From: Thermococcus sp.
GTDB taxonomy: Archaea; Methanobacteriota_B; Thermococci; Thermococcales; Thermococcaceae
DNA: 64,000 nt
Reading direction: 5' to 3'
Assembly: GCF_027063845.1 (NCBI RefSeq)
Contig: NZ_JAMOQU010000089.1
Location: 7,604-71,603, forward strand
Under the pieces are notes generated by a model, which saw nothing but the letters and a program-made list of their open reading frames with translations, made no database searches and was not told where the DNA came from. Made by a program: the position numbers and the translations under genes. Each line of letters opens with the position of its first letter. The first letter of the stretch is position 1. Positions 4,367 through 42,416 of this stretch are shown one piece after another.

Positions 4367-5662
4367 ATGAAGAGGGCTGGAGCCATAGTTCTCGTCCTTA
4401 TAGTACTCGGTGGGCTGGGCTTCGTGAGCGCCTGGCCGACGAACGGACCGACCCTCGAAGACCCAATGAACGTCCACCAGAAGCTGACCTACAAGGCCAT
4501 ACAGGCTGTCTACAGGGACAACCCGACCCTCGGCTCGATACTCATGCAGTACCGGGACCAGCTCCTCTACGGAGCATACGACGAGGACTGGCGCGGTGGA
4601 AGCATCGAGTTCAAGGGCAAGACCTACACCCTCCAGAGCCAGTACCACTTCCTTGACCCGATGGATCACGCCGAGCTTCTTACAGTCAATCTCTTTGGCG
4701 ATGCGGACACATCGGCCGCCGACATGGCCCAGAGGCTCTACGAGCAGGCGGTTCAGCTCTGGAAGGAGGGCAAAAGGGAGGAGGCCATGCTATACCTCGG
4801 CAGGACGGTTCACATTCTCGAGGACATGAGCATGCTCGTTGCCCACACGACCCCCCACATGTTCGAAGACCTTGAGCAGTTCAAGTACATAGAGAACGCC
4901 CACGACTTCGTCGAGAACGAGGTTTCCCCCGCCGTCGCCGACGACATACTCAACGACCGCGTCCCCCTCGACCTCACGCCGATAAAGTGGTGGCAGATTC
5001 CTCAGGAGAAGGAGAGGTTCATCATGGGGAAGGACATCTACGTTGCCGACAACGAGAACGGCCACATGAGCCTCGCCAACGGCGTCGCCTGGGCCTACGC
5101 CGACCTCATCGCCCACAACTCCTGGCGTTACATGCTCTACTCGACCGGCAAGGACATCAATCTCTGGAGCGAGCGCGGCCACCTCGGAAGCTACTTCTGG
5201 ACGAAGGAGCTCAAGAAGGGCGACTGGAGCGTCCTCAAGCTTGAGTTCAAGGGAGCCAGCTCAATAACCATCGTCTTCAAGGACATAGACATGCAGAACG
5301 CCTACTTCAAGACCCTCGGCTACGTTGAGGTCTACGACAAAAACTGGAACCTAATCGCCCGCTACGCCCAGGACCCGAACCCGCTCAAAGACACCAGAGT
5401 CACCGTTCCGGGGGATACAGTCTACATCTACACCCACGTTGATAAGGACGACTGGCTCGACGACGATGTCGACGGCTGGGCGATAAGGAACATCGAGCTC
5501 CACGCCAACTTCGACGTGAACGCACCGAGCGGCTTCAAGACCCTCGACGGTAGAGAGTACAGCCTCGTCCAATGGTCCGTCTACGAGACCATGCAGTACG
5601 ACATAAGGGCCGTCGCCGGGCTCATGGAAAAGTTCTTCGAGGACGTCGGCGTTACCAGCTAA
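4367..5662 (+). CDS. secreted zinc-dependent phospholipase C-like protein with a C-terminal beta-rich domain
   Basis: The signal peptide ends VSA|W. Mature W1, VHQKL, YGAYDEDW, YHFLDP, HILEDMSMLVAH and ENAHDFVE align with Bacillus cereus PLC zinc ligands W1, H14, D55, H69, H118/D122/H128 and H142/E146. Confidence 0.75.
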   Translation: MKRAGAIVLVLIVLGGLGFVSAWPTNGPTLEDPMNVHQKLTYKAIQAVYRDNPTLGSILMQYRDQLLYGAYDEDWRGGSIEFKGKTYTLQSQYHFLDPMDHAELLTVNLFGDADTSAADMAQRLYEQAVQLWKEGKREEAMLYLGRTVHILEDMSMLVAHTTPHMFEDLEQFKYIENAHDFVENEVSPAVADDILNDRVPLDLTPIKWWQIPQEKERFIMGKDIYVADNENGHMSLANGVAWAYADLIAHNSWRYMLYSTGKDINLWSERGHLGSYFWTKELKKGDWSVLKLEFKGASSITIVFKDIDMQNAYFKTLGYVEVYDKNWNLIARYAQDPNPLKDTRVTVPGDTVYIYTHVDKDDWLDDDVDGWAIRNIELHANFDVNAPSGFKTLDGREYSLVQWSVYETMQYDIRAVAGLMEKFFEDVGVTS

Positions 5663-8670: not shown

Positions 8671-8697
8671 TCCTTGAAATTGCGGTAGAATAAAGAA

Positions 8698-8990
8698 TCA
8701 CGAACCTTGGTCAAACTTCGCGCTCAGCCTTTGAGAAAGGCTGGCGAAAAGAGCGCCCTTCTCACCAAAGGGCAAAAACAGTCGTGCATTTGCCGAGTGC
8801 AAGTTTGGACAGGGTTTAACACCAAACAAGGCTTTTCAAGCAGTTCCAACTTTGTTATTAGCGTCCGAAGGACGCCGTTTAAAGGATGGAACACTCACCA
8901 AAGAGCACGTGGATAAGAAACCCACTTGGAAATTAATACTTCAAAAAAGCACTTAATCTTCCGCCAGCGCTTGCGAAGCAAGGGCTGTAA
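8698..8990 (-). repeat. tRNA-3'-anchored hairpin-rich repeat unit (copy A)
   Basis: A unit of about 290 bp that ends exactly at the CCA end of tRNA-Thr(GGU). Long identical runs are shared with 38886-39185. Hairpins: CAGCCTTTgagaAAGGCTG, GCGTCCgaaGGACGC, and a GCTTGCG.AAGC palindrome. Confidence 0.8.
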
Positions 8991-9067
8991 TGGAGCCCCG
9001 GGCGGGGTTTGAACCCGCGACCTGCCGCTTACCAAGCGGCCGCTCCACCAGGCTGAGCCACCGGGGC
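8991..9067 (-). tRNA. tRNA-Thr (anticodon GGU), CCA encoded
   Basis: Cloverleaf read by hand: acceptor GCCCCGG/CCGGGGC, anticodon loop TTGGTAA, T-arm GCGGG-TTCAAAC-CCCGC, discriminator U plus CCA. TATA CTTTATAAATTT lies about 35 nt upstream at 9097-9110. Confidence 0.9.
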
Positions 9068-9098: not shown

Positions 9099-9698
9099 TT
9101 ATAAATTTTTCTCTCCGAGCTTCTCGACGAGACCCCCAAGGACATCCTTGAACGCTGAAGCGTCAATCCACTTGATGCCCATCTTCTGCGCCCACGTCAG
9201 GATTCCAACGTCCGCAGAAACTATCGTCGCGTCCAGCTCTTTGGCGAGAAGGATTAACTCAAAGTCCTCCTTGCTGTCAACGATTCCTTCTCGAAGGGCC
9301 TTGCGGTAGTTCCTCCGGAGCTTCTGGATTATCTTGTCCACGTTGTCCGTCTCGACGACGCTTTCTCGAACGGCCTTCTCTGCAACTCTAAGCCCCTTGT
9401 CAACCCGTCTCCTTATGTCGTCTATGAGCTCGTAAACGACGAAGGCCGGAATCTTGAGGTCGTGCAGGTTGGGGGGCTTCTTGATGATGTAGAGCTCTAT
9501 CTCCGGCTTCAGTTCCTCGTCAACGAAGTGCATGACCTCACGGTAGATACCAGGTGGCATGTAAAACTCCACCTTCCCGAAGAGCTTCTCGGCGTAGTCT
9601 AAGAAGGTCCTCATGGCCTCGGTCGGGTTATCGCCGAAGTCCTTCCGGATTTCGGGGTTGACGAATATGCTCGTGTCGAGGACGAACCTCAGCGTCAT
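9099..9698 (-). CDS. PIN_5/UPF0278 family protein (HARP-type, RNA-free RNase P homolog)
   Basis: FVLDTSIFVNPEI (PIN acidic motif), GLRVAEK, DSKEDFELILLAKELDATIVSADVGILTWAQKMGIK. I recall the same pattern for Aquifex Aq_880-type proteins. ATG 9698 chosen. Confidence 0.6.
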   Translation of the reverse strand: MTLRFVLDTSIFVNPEIRKDFGDNPTEAMRTFLDYAEKLFGKVEFYMPPGIYREVMHFVDEELKPEIELYIIKKPPNLHDLKIPAFVVYELIDDIRRRVDKGLRVAEKAVRESVVETDNVDKIIQKLRRNYRKALREGIVDSKEDFELILLAKELDATIVSADVGILTWAQKMGIKWIDASAFKDVLGGLVEKLGEKNL

Positions 9699-9750
9699 CG
9701 GCCACCACAAGGTTATTTAGGGTCTGGGCTTTAAAAGGTTGGGTGGAAGC

Positions 9751-20300: not shown

Positions 20301-20621
20301 ATGGAGTACGTGTATGCCGCTCTGCTGCTCCACGCCGCTGGTAAGGAGATAAACGAGGAGAACCTCAAGGCCGTCCTTGAGGCCGCTGGAGTCACTCCGG
20401 ATGAGGCCAGGATAAAGGCTCTCGTTGCAGCGCTCGAGGGCGTCAACATCGACGAGGTCATCGAGAAGGCCGCCATGCCTGTCGCCGCTCCGGTCGCTGT
20501 CGCCGCCGCTCCGGCTCCCGCCGAGGGCGGTGCCGAGCAGGCTCAGGAGGAGGAAGAGGAGGAAGAGGAAGAGGTCAGCGAGGAGGAGGCCCTCGCTGGT
20601 CTCGGCGCCCTCTTCGGCTGA
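20301..20621 (+). CDS. rpl12: 50S ribosomal stalk protein P1 (L12)
   Basis: [22 protein letters not shown]..., Ala/Pro hinge, and C-terminal [12 protein letters not shown]. Confidence 0.95.
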
Positions 20622-20639
20622 ACTCCTCTTCTCTTTTGT

Positions 20640-20659
20640 CCGCCCTCGGGCGGGCTTTT
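20640..20659. terminator. GC hairpin plus T4 between convergent rpl12 and a membrane-protein gene
   Basis: CCGCCCtcGGGCGG followed by CTTTTC. Confidence 0.35.
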
Positions 20660-20670
20660 CAAAACTTTTC

Positions 20671-21099
20671 TCAGCGCTTCCTGAAGACGACAACCGTCTT
20701 CCACGTCCTTCTGTATCCCTCTGGGTTGAGCCTTCTCCTCAGCAACTCCATAAAGACCACGTAAGTTACAAAGAAGATGACGGAAACGACAACCTTTTCG
20801 ACCGTGTTCCTGAGGCCATTGAGTGCGTTTATCCAGGCTATGCCGAGGGCTCCAAGCATCAGGAATCCCGCGGTCTCGTACAGGGCAACGTTTCTCGGAA
20901 GTCTCTCAAACTTTCTGAGGGTCACTCCGACAACTAAAGTAATTAGGCCGATGAGCCCTAAAACCACAGTTGTTGTATCCACGGCACTTGCTCCATATCT
21001 CTGCGCCAGCAGGGGGTAAAGGGGAAGCGCCGGTGCAAGTGCAAAAAAGCCTGCAATGGTGACCCCACTCACGATGAGCACTTTTGTGCTTCTTCTCAT
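20671..21099 (-). CDS. hypothetical integral membrane protein (about 4 TM)
   Basis: 142-aa hydrophobic ORF. No family recognised. Confidence 0.55.
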   Translation of the reverse strand: MRRSTKVLIVSGVTIAGFFALAPALPLYPLLAQRYGASAVDTTTVVLGLIGLITLVVGVTLRKFERLPRNVALYETAGFLMLGALGIAWINALNGLRNTVEKVVVSVIFFVTYVVFMELLRRRLNPEGYRRTWKTVVVFRKR

Positions 21100-21190: not shown

Positions 21191-21268
21191 GGGCCGGTGG
21201 CCTAGCCTGGACGGGGCGTCGGCCTTCGGAGCCGAAGGTCGCGGGTTCGAATCCCGCCCGGCCCGCCA
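21191..21268 (+). tRNA. tRNA-Arg (anticodon UCG), CCA encoded
   Basis: Acceptor GGGCCGG/CCGGCCC, anticodon stem-loop TCGGC-CTTCGGA-GCCGA, T-arm GCGGG-TTCGAAT-CCCGC. Confidence 0.9.
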
Positions 21269-22085
21269 TTGAAACTTTGCCTTCGCAAAGTTTCATCAAA
21301 GTTTGTAGCTCTTTCTGGAAGGATATATTTCAAGAGATTTTCCATTTAATTGGCCGTATTGGGTAAAAGAACTTTTTAAATTGCCCCTTTTGGAAGGGTT
21401 TACCTTTAAATCGATGCCCGAAGGGCGTCAAGAAGAGAGTAAACCCCTTTGTAGGGTGCTGTTTTTGTGTTCTCCATTTGAAAAGAGCAATTTCGTGAGT
21501 AAAATCGATTTTATGGGGGTCTTTGGCGAGGAGCTACTAACTTTTGGTGAAGCTTTTGAAAAAAGCTTCCTTCGCAAGCGCTGGCGGAAGAGTAAGTGCT
21601 TTTCTAAGGATTAGCAAGTTTTGAGATGGGTTTACTCAACTTGCCCCTTGATTAGTGTTTCACTCTAAGAAGGCGTCCTTCGGACGCCGATGATAAGTTG
21701 AAACTACGCAGGAGCTTCATTTAGTTTTTAAACCCCTAGTCAATGTTGCACTTTTGGTGCACGACTGGCCTTTTGCTCGTTAGAGAGAAGGGCCTCATAT
21801 CGCCAGCCTTTCCCAAAGGCTGTTGCAAAGTTTCATCAAAGCCGGCATGCCTTTTGAATGGTTCGTTCTCAGGGGTTTACTTCCAAACTCGCCAGTTTTA
21901 AGCGTGTTTCCTCCATTAGCACCCGAAGGGCGCTGTTTAAAACTAAACACTTTCCTCCACACGCCATCATGAGCGTAAACCCCGAATCCATCGACTGTTT
22001 GATAACGCATGCAACTTTTCTTTTACCCTTTCGGACAGTTAAACCATTTTGGTCAAGCTTTGCGCAAGCAAAGCTTGCTGGCCTC
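21269..22085 (+). repeat. array of about three diverged tRNA-anchored hairpin-rich repeat units
   Basis: It starts at the base after the CCA of tRNA-Arg. Approximate units: 21269-21560, 21560-21845, 21845-22085. The middle unit aligns along its length with the reverse complement of 8698-8990 and 38886-39185. Motifs: GCAAAGTTTCATCAAAG (21286, 21825), CGCCAGCCTTTCCCAAAGGCTG (21801), TTCGCAAGCGCTGGCGGAAG (21571), GGCGTCCttcGGACGCC (21672). Confidence 0.75.
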
Positions 22086-22185
22086 AGGAGTGGTGGCCCT
22101 CCGCACCCCTCGGTGCCGGGCCAACCGCTCATCATCGGCCGGATTATTTTTATACCACCGCCTTAAATCCCCAGCGGTGGTTGGT

Positions 22186-37685: not shown

Positions 37686-37761
37686 GCCGCCGTAGCTTAG
37701 TCGGTAGAGCGCCGGACTGTTAATCCGGCGGTCCCCGGTTCGAATCCGGGCGGCGGCGCCA
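37686..37761 (+). tRNA. tRNA-Asn (anticodon GUU), CCA encoded
   Basis: Acceptor GCCGCCG/CGGCGGC, anticodon loop CTGTTAA, T-arm CCCGG-TTCGAAT-CCGGG. Confidence 0.9.
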
Positions 37762-37766
37762 TCAGT

Positions 37767-37844
37767 GGGCCCGTAGCTCAGCCTGGTCAGAGCGCGCGGC
37801 TCATAACCGCGTGGTCGGGGGTTCAAAGCCCCCCGGGCCCACCA
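37767..37844 (+). tRNA. tRNA with CAU anticodon (elongator Met or Ile2), CCA encoded
   Basis: Acceptor GGGCCCG/CGGGCCC, anticodon loop CTCATAA. G1:C72 and the absence of a GGG/CCC anticodon stem argue against an initiator. Met and agmatidine-modified Ile2 cannot be separated by eye. Confidence 0.85.
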
Positions 37845-38663
37845 TAGCAAACTTTTCTGGGGAAAAGTTTGACCAAAAGTGTTTGACTATTCAAAGTGTG
37901 GAGTTTATAGTTCGTGCACGTCAAGGAGTGTCTCTTGTTGGGAGTTTCTTTTTGACTTGCTATTCAGAGAGCGTTTCCTCCCCGAAAGGCGTCCGAAGGA
38001 CGCCGATGATAAGTTGAAACTATTACAAGGCTTGTTTTTAATGCTAAACTCGCGTTAAGTTCTTCAATTTGAAAGTGCACAACTGAGGTTTGCTTGTTTG
38101 GTAGACGAGCGCTTTTCGCCAGCCTTTCCCAAAGGCTGTGGGCAAAGTTTCATCAAAGTTCGTGATTCCTTTTGAAAAAGCCTATTCTTTGAGTGGATTT
38201 CTTTTTGAGTTGCTCTTTTGATGAAATGAATTCCTTTGAAAGCGCCTTTTACAGGGGGTTCAAGTCTTTGCGCTCCTTCGGAGCGCGGTTCAAGTAGAAC
38301 CCGCGTGAAAGAGGGTGTATCTTTAAAAAATTCAATCTTCAAGGGTCAGTTTAGAGTTTAAAATCCCTTTGTAGAGGAGCCTCAAGGAAGAATCACAAGC
38401 TTTTGGTGAAGCTTTTTCCAAAAGCTTCCTGCGCAAGCGCTGGCGGAAGATTAAGCACTTTTTAGAAGTGTAAGTTTCAGAAGGAGCTTCTATTATATCT
38501 CGCCTCCTATTGCGAGGGTTTTTCTCTCTTTGAAGGCACCCGACAGGCGCATTTTTGAATGAAACACTAATCAAAGGAGCGAATAGGGCCCTGCTTGAAA
38601 ACAGGGACACGCCCAAGAAAGGCACATCATTTCCGCCAGCGCTTGCGCAAGCAGGGGCTGATG
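37845..38663. repeat. array of tRNA-anchored hairpin-rich repeat units between convergent tRNA-Met and tRNA-Pro
   Basis: Forward units lie at about 37845-38160 and about 38160-38450. A truncated reverse unit at about 38490-38663 ends at the CCA of tRNA-Pro. Motifs: GGCGTCCgaaGGACGCC (37988), CGCCAGCCTTTCCCAAAGGCTG (38118), GCAAAGTTTCATCAAAG (38142), CTGCGCAAGCGCTGGCGGAAG forward (38429) and its complement (38631). Confidence 0.75.
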
Positions 38664-38741
38664 TGGTGGGGCCGCCGGGATTTGAACCCGGGTCACGGGC
38701 TCCCAAAGCCCGCAGGATGGGCCAAACTACCCTACGGCCCC
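38664..38741 (-). tRNA. tRNA-Pro (anticodon UGG), CCA encoded
   Basis: Acceptor GGGGCCG/CGGCCCC, anticodon stem-loop CGGGC-TTTGGGA-GCCCG, T-arm CCGGG-TTCAAAT-CCCGG. TATA AAAATTTAATAAGG lies about 30 nt upstream (38768-38781). Confidence 0.9.
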
Positions 38742-38885
38742 CTGCGGTAGGTGCATCACGGGTTGCCTTATTAAATTTTTCGCCGCTGAACTGGATGATG
38801 ATTTCACGTCAACAAAGCTAAAAGGAAAGAATGAGAGAGCTTCGAAGGCTGATATAGTGCATTCCAAATAAGGACAAATAAGGAG

Positions 38886-39185
38886 TCGCGAACTTTGATG
38901 AAACTTTGCCCACAGCTTTTGAGAAAGGCTGGCGAAATGAGTACCCTTCTCACCGAAGAGCAAAGGAGTCAATCGTGCACTGTTAGAGTGCAAGTTTAGA
39001 AAGGGTTTAATATCAAACAGGGTTTTTCAAGCAGTTCCAACTTTGTTATTAGCGTCCAAAGGACGCCGTTTAAAGAATGGAACACTCACCAAAGAGCACG
39101 TGAACAAGAAACCCACTTGAAAATGATAAATACTTCAAAAAAGCACTTAATCTTCCGCCAGCGCTTGCGCAAGCAAGGGCTGATG
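38886..39185 (-). repeat. tRNA-3'-anchored hairpin-rich repeat unit (copy D)
   Basis: A unit of about 300 bp ending at the CCA of tRNA-Leu. It is the closest relative of copy A (8698-8990). Confidence 0.8.
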
Positions 39186-39273
39186 TGGTGCGGGGGCGGG
39201 GATTTGAACCCCGGAACCCCTACGGGAGTGGATCTTGAGTCCACCGCCTTTGACCAGGCTCGGCAACCCCCGC
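39186..39273 (-). tRNA. tRNA-Leu (anticodon CAA), long variable arm, CCA encoded
   Basis: Acceptor GCGGGGG/CCCCCGC, anticodon loop CTCAAGA, extra arm CCCGTAGGGG, T-arm CCGGG-TTCAAAT-CCCCG. Confidence 0.9.
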
Positions 39274-40460: not shown

Positions 40461-42416
40461 TCACTTGAGCCTTATGGCGTCGAGGTTGTTGGGCGCGCGC
40501 GTTGATATGCCGAACTTCCTGTGTATGCTGGAGCTGAGGTCGAGGCACTTGTGGGCCTCGCCGTGGACGGTGATTATCCTTTCCGGCCTCGGCCTGACGC
40601 GGGCGACGTAGCTTATAAGTTCTCTCCTGTCCGCGTGGCCGGAGAAGCCGTCTATCGTGTGGACCTCCATGTTGACCTGAACGACCTCCGTCCTGCCGTC
40701 CTCGCCGATGAGCGGTATCTCGCGCAAACCTCTCTGAACCTGCCTTCCGAGCGTGCCCTCGGCCTGGTAGCTGACGAAGATGATGCTGTTCTTCGGGTCG
40801 GGGGCGAGCTGTTTGAAGTATTCGACGCTCGGTCCACCGACGAGCATGCCCGAGGTGGCTATGATTATCGCAGGCTCCCCGCTGTCTATGATATCCTGCC
40901 TCTCGCGCGAGTTGGCGACGGGTTTGAATATCGGGTTGAGGAACGGGTTGTAGCCCTCGTGGAATATCTGCTCGCGGAGGCTCTTGCTGAGGTACTCCGG
41001 GTAAGCTGTGTGGATTGCGGTAGCTTCCCAAATCATTCCGTCGAGGTAAATCGGAACTTCTATTCCCCCGACGCGCGCGTACTCCTCGAGAACCATCATT
41101 ATCTCCTGGGCCCTTCCAACGGCCATCGCCGGGATGAGCACCTTTCCACCGCGCTTGATGGTTTCTCTTATAACCTCTATGAGCTTCTTCTCGGCCTCCT
41201 CACGAGGCATCTGATAGTCGTTGCTTCCGCCATAGGTGGACTCCATGACCAGGGTCTCAAGGCGCGGGAACCTGCTCACGGCGGGCTCGAAGAGCCTGGT
41301 CGGAATGAACTTAAAGTCTCCGGTTACGGCTATGTTGTGGAGTCCATTGCCTATGTGGAGGTGGACAATGGCTGAACCGAGTATGTGACCAGCGTTGTGG
41401 AGGGTCAACCTTATGTCGGGGGCTATGTCCCTGACCTCGCCATAGTCGAGGGTTATGGTGTGCTTTATAACCTCCTTTATGTCCCTTGGTCTGTACAGGG
41501 GCTCGACGCCGTTCATGTGCTGAATCTCAATGAAGTCCTGCTGGAGGAGGGTCATCAGGTCCCTCGTCGGGGGAGTGGTGTAAATCGGCCCGTCGAAGAG
41601 CTTGTAGCGGAAGAGGTAAGGTAGCATTCCGCTGTGGTCGAGGTGGGCGTGGGTTATGATTATCGCGTCAAGAAGGCCCTCGTCAAGGACGTAGCGGAAT
41701 TCTGGAGCGTCGAAGTGCGGAAACGCTTTGAGCGGGTCTTTCATCGCGGCGATGTTCACACCGAAGTCAACAAGAACGTAGCTCTCATCGGTCTGAACCA
41801 AGAGAGCGCTCCTTCCAACCTCGCGGAAGCCACCCAAACCGGTAATCCTAATCCACCTGCTCTTGTACTCGGACTTGCGGTAGATGTTCCTGCCGACCTG
41901 CCTGAGGAACTTCCTCCTGTCCTTGCTCTCGGTCTGGAGAATCTGCCTTATCGAGTAAATCGTCTGGCTCTGGAGCGGAGGAGTCCTGACGACTCTCGGC
42001 GCCCAGTGAACCTTCTGCGTGATTAGGCGAAGCGTCTCGCCGTTTTTCCCGATGACGAGGCCGGGCTTCTTGGCCTCTATGAGAACTTCGCCGACTGAGG
42101 GGTCGAAGCTGATGTTGGTTATCTCGGCCTCCTTCGGGACGAGCTCCTTAATCATCTCCTCTGCCTTCTCGGGCGGAATCAGGATGTCCGGGTCAGGACG
42201 GACGCTTATCCTCTTCTTCAGAACCTTCGCGAGGTTCCTGATGAGGTCACCGTCCTTCATTATCGCCTCTGGGTTCTTGGTGTAGATGACGAGCTCCGGC
42301 CCCTCGAACTCGACGTCGGTTATCCTCGCGTTCGGCGGAACCATCTGGGCTATGACCTCGCGAATCTCCTTGAGTATCTCGTCAACGTAGGTTTCCCTCC
42401 GAATCAACGCCACCAC
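40461..42416 (-). CDS. fttA: aCPSF1/FttA: KH-domain beta-CASP metallo-beta-lactamase ribonuclease (transcription termination factor)
   Basis: Two N-terminal KH-like domains (VIGKNGETL), HAHLDHSG MBL motif, beta-CASP C-terminus. Conserved pairing with psmB. Confidence 0.93.
   Translation of the reverse strand: MVALIRRETYVDEILKEIREVIAQMVPPNARITDVEFEGPELVIYTKNPEAIMKDGDLIRNLAKVLKKRISVRPDPDILIPPEKAEEMIKELVPKEAEITNISFDPSVGEVLIEAKKPGLVIGKNGETLRLITQKVHWAPRVVRTPPLQSQTIYSIRQILQTESKDRRKFLRQVGRNIYRKSEYKSRWIRITGLGGFREVGRSALLVQTDESYVLVDFGVNIAAMKDPLKAFPHFDAPEFRYVLDEGLLDAIIITHAHLDHSGMLPYLFRYKLFDGPIYTTPPTRDLMTLLQQDFIEIQHMNGVEPLYRPRDIKEVIKHTITLDYGEVRDIAPDIRLTLHNAGHILGSAIVHLHIGNGLHNIAVTGDFKFIPTRLFEPAVSRFPRLETLVMESTYGGSNDYQMPREEAEKKLIEVIRETIKRGGKVLIPAMAVGRAQEIMMVLEEYARVGGIEVPIYLDGMIWEATAIHTAYPEYLSKSLREQIFHEGYNPFLNPIFKPVANSRERQDIIDSGEPAIIIATSGMLVGGPSVEYFKQLAPDPKNSIIFVSYQAEGTLGRQVQRGLREIPLIGEDGRTEVVQVNMEVHTIDGFSGHADRRELISYVARVRPRPERIITVHGEAHKCLDLSSSIHRKFGISTRAPNNLDAIRLK

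What the first reader, a model, noticed from the sequence alone, without database searches (positions are those of the whole stretch)
8698..8990. A repeat unit of about 290 bp abuts tRNA-Thr(GGU) and recurs behind an unrelated tRNA 30 kb away
The sequence from 8698 up to the base before the tRNA CCA end (8991) matches 38886-39185, which abuts tRNA-Leu(CAA). By eye the two share long identical runs:
- ttcaagcagttccaactttgttattagcgtcc
- aaggacgccgtttaaag
- atggaacactcaccaaagagcacgtg
- atacttcaaaaaagcacttaatcttccgccagcgcttgcg

The two tRNAs are different genes, so this is not a segmental duplication that carried a tRNA along. The unit is AT-rich with embedded GC hairpins, has no credible ORF, and sits in the same orientation relative to the tRNA in both places. 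That pattern fits three ideas: a non-autonomous element that targets tRNA 3' flanks, a co-transcribed structured RNA, or a relic of tRNA-targeted integration. I do not recognise it as a described family.
Basis: seen in the sequence. Interest (0 to 1): 0.7.

Follow-up and report, generated by a model that had tools for sequence, protein, structure and literature searches.

The report
Repeat modules behind Thermococcus tRNA genes
The ~300-bp repeat is real and belongs to an apparently undescribed family of non-coding, hairpin-bounded DNA modules that sit directly behind tRNA genes in some Thermococcus archaea, come and go between close relatives, and lie at the points where these chromosomes get inverted.

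Summary
Window 8683-8990 and 38872-39185 are about 86% identical, and each starts exactly 3 nt after the CCA of a different tRNA.

- **Family.** It has two module types, which I call A and B. They fill every non-coding tRNA 3' flank in the window. A modules lie behind at least nine different tRNAs in other Thermococcus genomes, including T. kodakarensis.
- **Anatomy.** An A module has a head hairpin plus an invariant 15-mer, then a T-tract. A long imperfect palindrome follows, with a covarying GC hairpin. It ends in an inverted tail hairpin and a 17-mer.
- **Not a known family.** It has no ORF, Rfam, Pfam, plasmid, virus or literature match.
- **Turnover.** T. nautili lacks the A module at two orthologous loci. 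Another strain lacks a 540-bp block that is flanked by the 17-mer as a direct repeat. Outside the hairpins, orthologous modules diverge at about the neutral rate.
- **Rearrangement.** The tRNA-Pro segment between modules is inverted relative to T. nautili. The "conserved sequence following tRNA-Gly" at which Cossu et al. (2017) mapped an inversion crossover is a B module.

Best reading: MITE-like modular repeats that serve as recombination substrates. An RNA role (tRNA trailer or sRNA) is not excluded, and how the modules spread is unknown.

The parts
8991..9067 (-). tRNA-Thr(GGU); its CCA end is at 8991-8993.
   Evidence: ARAGORN; Rfam tRNA, 64 bits.
8683..8990 (-). A module copy 1, the reported unit. 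It comprises a 3-nt spacer, head, body, tail and 17-mer.
   Evidence: nhmmer 314 bits; blastn against copy 2, E 7e-104.
8965..8987 (-). Head hairpin CAGCCCTTG-CTTCG-CAAGCGCTG. It overlaps the invariant 15-mer AAGCGCTGGCGGAAG at 8958-8972.
   Evidence: Motif coordinates. The 15-mer is exact or within 2 mismatches in all 22 non-redundant family heads listed and occurs 5 times in the window against 0.08 expected.
8939..8952 (-). GTGCTTTTTTGAAG. The T6 tract at 8943-8948 lies 43-48 nt after the tRNA end. It is a probable stop for tRNA transcription, or possibly a TATA-like box.
   Evidence: Coordinates. T4-T6 is conserved at this position in all aligned copies. The function is inferred.
8812..8926 (-). 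Long imperfect palindrome: GGGTTT box (8915-8926), GTGTTCCA (8887-8896), apical GC hairpin GGCGTCC-TTC-GGACGCT (8860-8876), GTTGGAACT (8842-8850), AAACCC box (8812-8819).
   Evidence: On covariation, 9 of 19 pairs show double changes, 94% of cells are paired, and 0 of 500 shuffles reach the observed score.
8725..8746 (-). Tail hairpin CGC-CAGCCTTT-CTC-AAAGGCTG, preceded by CTTTT. It is the inverted homologue of the head, so the two form terminal inverted repeats.
   Evidence: Inverted repeat I4, 8740-8749 with 8959-8968.
8705..8721 (-). 17-mer boundary motif GCGAAGTTTGACCAAGG (M), followed by TTCGTGATTC. It is orthologous to the 3' arm of the hairpin that directly follows tRNA-Thr in T. nautili.
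39186..39273 (-). tRNA-Leu(CAA).
38872..39185 (-). A module copy 2. Head 15-mer at 39152-39166, T-tract 39133-39146, central hairpin 39051-39067, tail 38913-38934, 17-mer 38893-38909.
   Evidence: nhmmer 314 bits.
38664..38741 (-). tRNA-Pro(UGG).
38500..38663 (-). Partial, diverged A module abutting tRNA-Pro (CCA-CAT-CAGCCCC..AAGCGCTGGCGGAAA).
21191..21268 (+). tRNA-Arg(UCG).
21271..21571 (+). B module. It opens with the hairpin plus 17-mer (Hf, TGAAACTTTGC-CTTC-GCAAAGTTTCATCAAAG, 21270-21301). The body has a GC hairpin. It closes with the inverted hairpin Hr (CTTTTGGTGAAGCTTTT-GAA-AAAAGCTTC, from 21541).
   Evidence: (I2, I8). It is homologous to the tRNA-Gly flank of Cossu et al..
21572..21841 (+). 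A module without its own 5' hairpin arm, following Hr. It ends with the 17-mer at 21825-21841, a direct repeat of 21285-21301.
   Evidence: The core 21572-21824 is absent in T. nautili, and the 540-bp block between the two 17-mers, counting one 17-mer copy, is absent in L146.
21844..22081 (-). Degenerate module on the other strand, starting with a hairpin plus motif directly behind the C/D-box sRNA sR47 (22082-22139, -).
   Evidence: weak, E 5e-5.
37767..37844 (+). tRNA-Met(CAU), preceded by tRNA-Asn at 37686-37761.
37845..38173 (+). A-like module with an Hf-type head (hairpin at 37848-37879) and typical central hairpin, tail and 17-mer (38142-38158).
   Evidence: nhmmer 287 bits.
38139..38430 (+). 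B module ending in Hr (from 38400).
   Evidence: nhmmer with the B model, E 3.5e-24.
38430..38478 (+). A head fragment (15-mer at 38435-38449 plus T-tract) facing the partial A behind tRNA-Pro.

Best explanation
**What it is.** The unit is one member (type A) of a family of ~300-bp non-coding DNA modules bounded by inverted hairpins. In a subset of Thermococcus species these modules occupy the DNA immediately 3' of tRNA genes and a few other small-RNA genes. They occur singly or in arrays of 2-3, always in the tRNA's orientation.

**Boundaries.** Modules of types A and B share boundary elements: a short hairpin, the motif RYCAAAG or GCGGAAG, and the 17-mer GCAAAGTTTCATCAAAG.

**How it behaves.** I read the modules as MITE-like, largely selfish or weakly domesticated DNA.
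- Copies are gained, lost and swapped by recombination at these shared boundaries.
- Between the boundaries they drift at about the neutral rate.

**Main consequences.**
- They supply the first ~45 nt of the tRNA 3' trailer, a hairpin plus a T-tract.
- They scatter 100-300 bp of homology behind unrelated tRNA genes. This homology seeds inversions, deletions and re-association of flanks, whether through host recombination or through the pTN3-type integrase.

**Status of each step.**
- Shown: family membership, anatomy, the tRNA-end position, presence/absence polymorphism, location at an inversion, and a B module as the sequence at a published crossover.
- Inferred: the selfish nature, the trailer/terminator role, and the way new copies arise.
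For: **1. Position.**
- All 22 non-redundant A heads retrieved with a position-neutral pattern follow a structured element. Twelve lie exactly 3 nt after a tRNA CCA, and 8 distinct anticodons are identified among them. Eight follow the Hr hairpin; the seven whose upstream sequence is available lie inside arrays that start at a tRNA, and L129's contig ends too soon to tell. Two follow a GC mini-hairpin.
- T. nautili adds tRNA-Met.
- In the 64-kb window, no copy lies outside three small-RNA-gene intergenic regions.

**2. MITE-like anatomy.**
- Terminal inverted repeats are present in both A and B, and the body is a foldback.
- There is no ORF or Pfam hit.
- Copies within one genome are 61-87% identical.

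**3. Helices look like DNA-level palindromes.**
- The helices covary.
- 174 of 180 cells are Watson-Crick, with 3 G-U against 2 A-C, so there is no strand bias.

**4. Turnover at orthologous loci.**
- tRNA-Thr(GGU) locus: T. nautili has CCA-T-[intact hairpin+17-mer]. The window has CCA-TTA-[A]-17-mer with the same downstream TTCGTGATTCT.
- tRNA-Arg locus: there are three or more allelic states. L146, whose flanks are 98-99% identical to the window, lacks a 540-bp block that is flanked in the window by the 17-mer as a direct repeat. T. nautili has B but not the A core.
- Next to rpiA: T. kodakarensis has A where T. peptonophilus has B.

**5. Rate of change.**
- Window against T. nautili: the B module has 24% mismatches and the reverse module 14.5%.
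- Four-fold degenerate sites differ by 4-28%, pooled 14.5%.

**6. Rearrangement.**
- The ~0.8-kb tRNA-Pro segment is inverted between the window and T. nautili. Both ends lie in A/H repeats.
- In T. nautili a full A module abuts tRNA-Met. It is 84% identical to the window copy behind tRNA-Leu(CAA) and 89% identical to the copy behind tRNA-Thr(GGU).
- The HARP-tRNA-Thr and rpiA-tRNA-Leu loci are adjacent in T. kodakarensis and T. peptonophilus but 30 kb apart here.

**7. Published experiment (Cossu et al. 2017, PMC5495485).**
- An in vivo inversion, and the Int-pTN3 crossover in vitro, fell in the 3' half of tRNA-Gly plus the 'strictly conserved sequences immediately following'.
- That printed sequence is Hf + B module + Hr (E 1.7e-13 against the window's B).
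Against: **Against a MITE-like element**
- A modules have no target-site duplication.
- No transposase-bearing relative with the same ends was found. My genome-wide scan was wasted on a GC-rich pattern, so this absence is weak evidence.
- The one event with clear polarity is a loss: the L146 deletion between the 17-mers. The gains are inferred by parsimony only.

**Features that suggest function or a site-specific mechanism**
- The head 15-mer is invariant from T. kodakarensis to this genome, and the hairpins are kept by compensatory changes. Some features are therefore under selection, which could be for a host function.
- The exact 3-nt spacing from CCA is not explained by plain recombination. 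It hints at a site-specific mechanism or a processing constraint.
- Published dRNA-seq shows that tRNA 3' flanks in T. kodakarensis are rich in orphan start sites. That fits a functional RNA role.

**Limits of the negative searches**
- The plasmid collection searched is probably poor in archaeal plasmids.
Confidence: 0.55

Rival explanations
1. **Functional RNA module.** The head is a conserved tRNA 3' trailer: a processing or termination hairpin directly after CCA, followed by a T-tract. The body is a small-RNA gene, either read through from the tRNA promoter or transcribed from its own promoter. The T-rich box YTTTTYTAARR would act as the TATA box, with a start near the GGGTTT box about 70 nt after the tRNA. 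On this reading the family spreads because it is useful behind stable-RNA genes.
For: - The hairpin lies 0-4 nt after CCA in every module-bearing tRNA.
- T4-T6 is conserved 44-49 nt downstream.
- The 15-mer is invariant across species.
- The helices covary, and both strands fold better than shuffles, z about -4.
- In T. kodakarensis, 28 of 53 unnamed orphan sRNA start sites lie within 1.2 kb of a tRNA, 23 of them downstream. Sense starts lie at +67 to +85 behind four tRNAs.
- A start site lies inside the T. kodakarensis A module, 69 nt from the tRNA end.
- Tko-sR44 is co-transcribed with tRNA-Arg.
Against: - The only start site inside the T. kodakarensis A module is antisense. No sense start is listed there.
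- A T6 run inside a functional read-through RNA would terminate archaeal RNA polymerase.
- The helices show no G-U strand bias.
- Module bodies diverge at about the neutral rate.
- Modules are dispensable at orthologous loci in close relatives and absent from T. barophilus and P. furiosus at the loci checked.
- The 15-mer is equally conserved in copies that are not next to a tRNA.
Confidence: 0.25
2. **Cassette system with a dedicated site-specific mechanism.** Modules would be inserted at the tRNA 3' end, or into the loop of the hairpin plus 17-mer, by a recombinase that recognises these hairpins. Alternatively, synthesis would be primed by the tRNA end. Either way arrays would build up as integron cassettes do at attI/attC.
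For: - The spacing from CCA is exactly 3 nt in 12 of 12 abutting copies.
- In both A insertions seen relative to T. nautili, the 5' arm and loop of the resident hairpin are replaced and its 3' arm plus motif is kept.
- The B+A block is flanked by a 17-bp direct repeat, as att sites would be.
- Arrays are co-oriented and anchored at tRNAs.
- The loop of the central hairpin occurs in both complementary forms.
Against: - No candidate enzyme is linked to the modules in any locus read.
- The hairpin arms are separated by only 3-5 nt, unlike typical tyrosine-recombinase cores.
- No circular or free form is known.
- All the observations can also be produced by homology-driven recombination between the many similar boundaries.
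Confidence: 0.12
3. **Relic of integrated plasmids or viruses.** Elements that used the tRNA genes as attachment sites would have left their att-proximal end behind each tRNA.
For: - Thermococcales integrative elements do target tRNA genes (PMC5495485).
- The sequence starts right at the tRNA end.
Against: - There is no duplicated tRNA 3' fragment anywhere in the window.
- There are no integrase or other coding remnants.
- No match was found in phage/virus or viral-contig collections. The only two 17-mer hits are chance.
- pTN3 uses the 5' half of tRNA-Leu (positions 2-44) and lies upstream of it, not downstream.
- Modules also follow a C/D-box sRNA.
Confidence: 0.05
4. **Plain segmental duplication or assembly artefact.**
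For: Contigs of the same population often end inside these regions, which shows that assemblers struggle with them.
Against: - The tRNAs themselves are unrelated beyond generic tRNA features.
- Independent assemblies reproduce the window exactly.
- Related copies occur in isolates with complete genomes.
Confidence: 0.02

Closest known systems
MITEs and other small intergenic foldback repeats of prokaryotes (Sulfolobus SM-type MITEs, Neisseria Correia elements, enterobacterial ERIC/IRU and REP/BIME)
   Same: - They are short and non-coding.
- They have terminal inverted repeats and a foldback body.
- They occur as many diverged intergenic copies.
- They are present or absent between close strains.
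- They can be co-transcribed with neighbours and act as recombination substrates.
   Different: - A modules have no target-site duplication, and no cognate transposase is known.
- Placement is extreme in its specificity: exactly 3 nt after a tRNA CCA, or behind a sister module.
- The boundaries are hairpins shared between two otherwise different module types.
- The modules form co-oriented arrays.
tRNA-gene-targeting integrative elements of Thermococcales (pTN3, TKV/pT26-2 family) and Int-pTN3-driven inversions (Cossu et al. 2017, PMC5495485)
   Same: - Both are associated with tRNA genes.
- The modules lie at inversion breakpoints of the kind that paper describes.
- A B module is the downstream sequence at their mapped tRNA-Gly crossover.
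   Different: - The modules encode nothing and carry no att duplication.
- They lie 3' of intact tRNAs, whereas pTN3 recombines in the 5' half of tRNA-Leu.
- They would be substrates of such recombination, not agents of it.
Integron gene-cassette arrays (attC hairpins)
   Same: - Short units form co-oriented arrays, each bounded by an imperfect-palindrome site.
- Gain and loss occur at the site boundaries.
   Different: - The units carry no genes.
- No integrase is linked to them.
- The anchor is a tRNA 3' end.
- The resemblance is in architecture only.
tRNA-linked small RNAs (Tko-sR44-tRNA-Arg in T. kodakarensis, plant tRNA-snoRNA dicistrons, mascRNA/MALAT1, bacterial tRNA 3' external transcribed spacers)
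   Same: A structured sequence lies directly downstream of a tRNA and could be released by tRNA 3' processing.
   Different: - No sense transcript has been demonstrated.
- A T-tract lies 45 nt into the unit.
- It has no C/D or H/ACA boxes.
- It is dispensable between close relatives.
IS200/IS605-derived palindrome-associated elements (PATEs) and TnpB omega-RNA ends
   Same: - Both have subterminal hairpins at both ends and no target duplication.
- Both insert in a fixed orientation next to a specific short sequence.
   Different: - The flanks of the two end hairpins are inverted, as in terminal inverted repeats, rather than direct.
- No TnpA or TnpB is linked to the modules.
- The one TnpB fragment seen nearby (L147) shares no sequence with them.

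Membership tests
MITE | Small (under about 600 bp) and non-coding | tested here: met
   The units are 280-310 bp. ORFs are short, not shared between copies, and have no Pfam hit.
MITE | Terminal inverted repeats | tested here: met
   - A: GCTGGCGAAA / TTCCGCCAGC, plus the head and tail hairpins.
- B: AAAGTTTGTAGCTC / GAGCTACTAACTTT, 93%.
MITE | Target-site duplication flanking each copy | tested here: not met
   The flanks of five complete tRNA-abutting A copies differ: TTA/AGC, CAT/TGG, TTA/TTG, CAA/TGC, TTA/AGT. The 17-bp direct repeat around the B+A block is a shared module boundary, not a per-copy duplication.
MITE | Multiple dispersed copies with insertion polymorphism | tested here: met
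   The window holds at least 6 A-type and 2 B-type members or fragments. Copies are absent at orthologous loci in T. nautili and L146.
MITE | Autonomous element with the same ends encoding a transposase | tested here: inconclusive
   None was found in any locus read or in the 13 metagenome hits. The genome-wide scan was uninformative.
Any Rfam RNA family | Covariance-model match at or near the gathering score | tested here: not met
   No hit on any module at the gathering threshold or at E up to 1.
Integrated-element remnant (att-flanked) | Direct repeat of the tRNA 3' (or 5') segment at the far end, and coding remnants | tested here: not met
   The T-arm pattern matches six of the seven intact tRNA genes plus one chance site inside an ORF, and no orphan tRNA fragment. 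There are no coding remnants.
Intrinsic-terminator-like tRNA trailer | Hairpin followed by an oligo-T tract just downstream of the gene | tested here: inconclusive
   The hairpin starts 3 nt after CCA. However, the T4-T6 tract lies about 20 nt beyond it, and a bacterial-type scan does not flag it. No 3'-end mapping data are available.
Structured RNA (generic) | Compensatory base changes with G-U tolerance on one strand | tested here: inconclusive
   Compensatory changes are clear. But pairs are 97% Watson-Crick with 3 G-U against 2 A-C, which fits a DNA palindrome equally well.

The most novel reading that the evidence does not exclude
The modules are cassettes of a dedicated insertion system specific to Thermococcus. 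The system would recognise the mature 3' end of a stable-RNA gene (CCA+3), or the loop of the hairpin plus 17-mer, and would build co-oriented arrays there. That would make it an archaeal, gene-less analogue of integron cassette capture, or a tRNA-end-primed insertion. The invariant 15-mer and the 17-mer would be the protein recognition sites.
Probability: 0.13. Interest if true: 0.8.

Novelty: new variant of a known kind. Interest (0 to 1): 0.6.

Why it matters
Thermococcales chromosomes are scrambled by frequent large inversions whose endpoints sit at pairs of tRNA genes, often different ones such as Leu x Thr or Leu x Gly. Cossu et al. (2017) showed that the pTN3 integrase can recombine any two sequences sharing about 100 bp or more. 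They could not get inversion between the bare tRNA-Leu and tRNA-Thr genes.

A family of 300-bp modules parked directly behind unrelated tRNA genes would supply the missing homology.
- Here it lies behind exactly a tRNA-Thr and a tRNA-Leu.
- It brackets a segment that is inverted relative to T. nautili.
- One of its members is the sequence at their mapped tRNA-Gly crossover.

This turns "why tRNA genes?" into a testable statement about a specific repeat family.

It also offers an origin for many of the unexplained AT-rich orphan sRNA start sites reported next to tRNA genes in T. kodakarensis. And it explains why assemblies of these genomes break at tRNA clusters.

Tried and rejected
- **Wasted genome scan.** I scanned genome contigs with the GC-rich 18-mer CGCAAGCGCTGGCGGAAG.
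- **Wasted protein search.** The 170-aa ORF at 20425-20937 turned out to be a spurious frame over the acidic ribosomal protein gene.
- **Plasmid, phage and viral searches.** These gave no match, or chance 17-mer matches only. The plasmid set may lack archaeal plasmids.
- **Rfam.** No hit at the gathering or the permissive threshold.
- **Strand assignment from G-U pairs.** There is no bias.
- **A long-range head-tail RNA helix.** It is perfect with G-U pairs in copy 1. It is not kept in copies whose tail has the Hr form (T. kodakarensis, L122, L123, L126), so I treat it as terminal-inverted-repeat homology rather than an RNA helix.
- **Other motifs considered by eye and dropped for lack of a match:** a bulge-helix-bulge splicing motif, C/D boxes, ORB origin boxes and CRISPR-repeat similarity.
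- **TnpB/omega-RNA link.** The only TnpB fragment near a module locus (L147) shares no sequence with the modules.
- **Bacterial promoter/terminator scan.** Uninformative for an archaeon.
- **The T. nautili rpiA locus.** I could not fetch it by exact-protein look-up. I recovered the region instead from the genome FASTA in the supplement of PMC5495485.
- **An exact model of the tRNA-Pro inversion.** It is unclear whether the whole inter-tRNA block was inverted or only the segment between inverted A copies. Paralogous copies blur orthology.
Full report
**1.
- Window 8689-9016 and 38877-39211 align at 85% identity over 336 columns, E 7e-104. A global alignment of 8683-8990 with 38872-39185 gives 86.6% identity, and the longest exact run is 41 nt.
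- The flanking genes are tRNA-Thr(GGU) at 8991-9067(-) and tRNA-Leu(CAA) at 39186-39273(-). These tRNAs share only generic tRNA features.
- Both units lie on the tRNA's strand and begin three bases after the CCA.
- The units are 43-46% GC in a 54.5% GC window.
- Their ORFs are short, differ between copies and have no Pfam match.

**2. The window holds a family, not a pair.** blastn, pattern searches and an nhmmer profile of the copies find further members:
- an A copy at 21572-21841(+);
- an A-like copy at 37845-38173(+);
- a head fragment at 38430-38478(+);
- a partial copy at about 38500-38663(-), abutting tRNA-Pro.

A second module type, B, was recognised from its own conserved ends. It lies at 21271-21571(+) and 38139-38430(+). 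A degenerate module follows the C/D-box sRNA sR47 on the other strand.

Nothing related occurs elsewhere in the 64 kb. The other C/D sRNA, sR58, has no module. Of the seven tRNAs, five have a 3' end facing non-coding DNA (Thr-GGU, Arg, Met, Pro, Leu), and all five are followed by a module. The other two are followed at once by another tRNA or by a converging gene.

**3. Organism and relatives.**
- Neighbouring proteins place the window in a Thermococcus close to T. nautili, T. prieurii and T. henrietii. The RNA-free RNase P (PIN_5) protein is 98% identical.
- A metagenome scan used a pattern taken from the module head, so it was neutral with respect to tRNA position. It returned 13 loci. The one genome scan yielded four Thermococcus loci.
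- Together with T. kodakarensis KOD1, there are 22 non-redundant A heads.
- Twelve of them start exactly 3 nt after a tRNA CCA. The tRNAs are Thr-GGU, Leu-CAA (twice), Pro-UGG, Leu-UAG (twice), Gly-CCC, Gly-GCC, His-GUG, Arg-CCU, and two that ARAGORN missed. One of those two is an intron-containing tRNA by Rfam.
- Eight follow the inverted hairpin Hr. Seven of them lie inside arrays that begin at a tRNA 300-600 nt upstream, in the same orientation. For the eighth (L129) the contig ends too soon to tell.
- Two follow a GC-rich mini-hairpin (L071, L123).
- T. nautili adds tRNA-Met.
The association with tRNAs is therefore strong but not absolute.
- T. barophilus and P. furiosus show no module at the loci checked.

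**4. Anatomy of an A module, read in the tRNA sense.**
- Three variable bases come first.
- The head hairpin follows: CAGCCCTTG-n5-CAAGCGCTG. It overlaps the invariant 15-mer AAGCGCTGGCGGAAG.
- GTGC plus a T4-T6 tract lies 44-49 nt after the tRNA.
- A GGGTTT box comes next.
- Then comes the helix GTGTTYC...GRAACT, enclosing a 7-bp GC hairpin (GGCGTCC-nnn-GGACGCC).
- An AAACCC box follows, then two small hairpins.
- The tail hairpin is CTTTTCGC-CAGCCTTT-CYC-AAAGGCTG.
- The module ends with the 17-mer GCAAAGTTTCATCAAAG, followed by TTCGTGATTCC.

The head and tail are inverted homologues, so they form terminal inverted repeats (I4). In T. kodakarensis and three other copies the tail has the B-type form TTTTGGTSAAGCTTTTTCCAAAAGCTTS.

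B modules have the same plan with different ends. They open with GAAACTTTGC-nnn-GCAAAGTTTC-ATCAAAG-TTTGTAGCTC and close with its inverse (I2, I8).

Three helices covary. Of 19 pairs, 9 show changes on both sides. 94% of cells are paired, no shuffle out of 500 reaches the observed score, and slid controls collapse.

Both strands fold about 4 SD better than shuffles. In the two helices of the central palindrome, pairs are 174 of 180 Watson-Crick, with 3 G-U and 2 A-C. The structure therefore gives no strand and fits a DNA palindrome as well as an RNA. The loop of the central hairpin occurs in both complementary forms, TTC and GAA.

**5. Not a known family.**
- Rfam gives no hit at gathering or permissive thresholds.
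- Phage and plasmid collections give no match.
- Viral contigs give no match. Two exact 17-mer hits are unrelated coding sequence.
- Sequence strings and topic searches find no description in the literature.
- The T. kodakarensis and T. onnurineus transcriptome papers do not mention such a family.

**6. Turnover at orthologous loci.**

*tRNA-Thr(GGU).*
- T. nautili has CCA-T-CGAAACTTTGC-TGG-GCAAAGTTTGACCAAGG-TTCGTGATTCT, followed by a B-like module and a 97-aa ORF.
- The window has CCA-TTA-[A module]-GCGAAGTTTGACCAAGG-TTCGTGATTCT.
- The A module therefore replaces the 5' arm and loop of the resident hairpin.
- T. kodakarensis and T. peptonophilus have neither a module nor a hairpin there, so a gain in the window's lineage is the parsimonious reading.

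*tRNA-Arg(UCG).* A single look-up with the window's own ribosomal protein P1 returned several alleles.
- L146 has flanks 98-99% identical to the window. It lacks a 540-bp block (the B body, Hr, the A core and one 17-mer copy). In the window that block is bounded by the 17-mer as a direct repeat at 21285-21301 and 21825-21841, and L146 keeps one copy.
- T. nautili has B and Hr. In place of the A core it has 55 nt, consisting of a GC mini-hairpin and the intact hairpin plus 17-mer.
- L138 and L144 carry other modules between the same flanks.
- Because T. nautili, the outgroup, has B, the L146 state is a deletion between the 17-mers.

*Next to rpiA.* T. kodakarensis has A behind tRNA-Leu(UAG), and T. 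peptonophilus has B.

*Rates.* Between the window and T. nautili, four-fold degenerate sites differ by 3.8-28% (pooled 14.5%, 586 sites). The orthologous B module differs by 24% and the reverse module by 14.5%. That is roughly neutral outside the hairpins. The two focal A copies differ by 13%, so their duplication is about as old as that species split.

**7. Rearrangements.**
- In T. kodakarensis and T. peptonophilus the gene for RNA-free RNase P, tRNA-Thr(GGU), tRNA-Pro(UGG), tRNA-Leu and rpiA form one convergent cluster. In the window the two halves of that cluster are 30 kb apart, and each half ends in an A module.
- The supplement of Cossu et al. (2017, PMC5495485) contains T. nautili genome FASTA. 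I reassembled 1.8 kb around its tRNA-Leu(CAA) from the printed lines.
- That region reads: tRNA-Leu -> Hf-B-Hr-A' ... <- tRNA-Pro ... <- A <- tRNA-Met <- tRNA-Asn, then tRNA-Thr(UGU).
- Against the window, the ~0.8-kb block with tRNA-Pro aligns plus/plus. Both flanks (tRNA-Leu on one side; Met, Asn, Thr and thymidylate kinase on the other) align plus/minus. The block is therefore inverted, and both ends lie in A/H repeats.
- The full A module abuts tRNA-Met in T. nautili and tRNA-Leu(CAA) in the window. The T. nautili copy is 84% identical to the window's Leu copy and 89% identical to its Thr copy.
- "The same unit behind unrelated tRNAs" thus has two sources: duplicative transfer, and re-association of flanks by inversion.

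**8. Link to published experiments.**
- Cossu et al. report inversion endpoints at tRNA pairs, including Leu x Thr and Leu x Gly. They report failure of Int-pTN3 to invert bare tRNA-Leu/tRNA-Thr genes, and a need for about 104 bp of identity.
[quoted passage not shown] It contains GGGTTTACCTTTAAATCGACGCCCTCGGGCGTC and ends GGGGCTACAAG-CTTTTGGTGGAGCTTC. That is Hf + B module + Hr.
- It is homologous to the window's B module (blastn E 1.7e-13 plus the shared ends).
- The authors treated it as part of a paralogous gene pair and did not describe a repeat family.

**9. Transcription (published data only).**
- In T. kodakarensis dRNA-seq (Jaeger et al. 2014, PMC4247193), the only start site inside the A module behind TKt22 is on the antisense strand, 69 nt from the tRNA end.
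- From their tables I computed that 28 of 53 unnamed orphan sRNA start sites lie within 1.2 kb of a listed tRNA gene. Twenty-three of these are downstream. About 4.4% of the genome falls in such windows, giving a binomial p of 3e-24. This is inflated by the fact that orphans must be intergenic.
- Sense starts lie 67-85 nt behind four tRNAs.
- I could not read those loci, so I do not know whether they are modules.

**10. Interpretation.**

*Shown.*
- This is a repeat family with defined ends.
- It is placed with high precision behind stable-RNA genes.
- It is modular and polymorphic.
- It is structurally constrained only at its hairpins.
- It sits at an inversion and at a published crossover.

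*Inferred.*
- The modules are MITE-like selfish or weakly domesticated DNA.
- Their shared boundaries mediate gain, loss and exchange.
- Their head serves as the tRNA trailer and stop signal.

*Unexplained.*
- The exact CCA+3 junction.
- The invariant 15-mer.
- The replacement of precisely the 5' arm and loop of the resident hairpin in both inferred A gains.

These three points keep two alternatives alive: a site-specific mechanism (probability about 0.13) and a functional RNA or processing role (about 0.25).

**11. Limits.**
- No complete genome could be scanned, so copy number per genome and the true fraction of modules away from tRNAs are unknown.
- Orthology among paralogous copies is uncertain, so the exact inversion model is open.
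- Archaeal plasmids were probably not represented in the plasmid collection.
- All functional statements rest on sequence and on two published data sets.

Noticed in passing
window 9099-9710 (-): The gene directly upstream of tRNA-Thr(GGU), and co-oriented with it, encodes the PIN_5 protein. Sources name it both 'RNA-free ribonuclease P' and 'RNA ligase partner protein'. In other words, a tRNA 5'-processing enzyme gene sits next to a tRNA gene. The adjacency is conserved in T. nautili, T. kodakarensis and T. peptonophilus.
   Followed up: partly
window 22046-22139 (-): The C/D-box sRNA sR47 is followed at once by the same hairpin plus CAAAA motif that follows tRNAs, and then by a degenerate module. 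[quoted passage not shown]
   Followed up: partly
T. kodakarensis KOD1 genome (tables of PMC4247193): 28 of 53 unnamed orphan sRNA start sites lie within 1.2 kb of a tRNA gene, mostly downstream. The paper does not comment on this.
   Followed up: partly
L147 1999-2518 (-): In another Thermococcus MAG the ribosomal P1 gene is followed by a truncated membrane-protein gene and a TnpB fragment (Cas12f1-like_TNB) at the contig end. No tRNA-Arg was found in the sequence available. The fragment shares no sequence with the modules.
   Followed up: no
L140 about 5280-5334; L071 100-145; L123 about 1700-1760: A GC-rich mini-hairpin module (GGGGCTTCGCCCC or GGGGGCTAACGCCCCC, followed by CAC...) occupies the place of a tRNA end. 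It lies in front of an A head or an Hf hairpin.
   Followed up: no
A2 alignment columns 129-131 (window 8867-8869, 39058-39060, 21679-21681, 37995-37997): The 3-nt loop of the central GC hairpin appears in complementary versions in different copies (TTC/TTT against GAA/AAA/AGA), as if the hairpin tip had been flipped.
   Followed up: no
L122 2855-2900: One A copy, behind tRNA-Gly(CCC), carries an extra insertion of about 45 nt made of two mini-hairpins, between the tail hairpin and the 17-mer.
   Followed up: no
L134 11027-11320 (-): T. nautili has a 97-aa ORF with no Pfam hit on record between tRNA-Thr(GGU) and gcvPB. It is absent from the window.
   Followed up: no
window 40461-42416 (-): The gene for the aCPSF1/FttA-type KH + beta-CASP ribonuclease, the archaeal transcription termination factor, lies 1.2 kb from the tRNA-Leu locus. 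The synteny rpiA - 123-aa protein - aCPSF1 - proteasome is conserved in T. kodakarensis, T. peptonophilus and T. barophilus.
   Followed up: no
L150, L151, L153 contig ends: Several metagenome contigs of the same population end inside the tRNA/module region. The repeats break short-read assemblies.
   Followed up: partly
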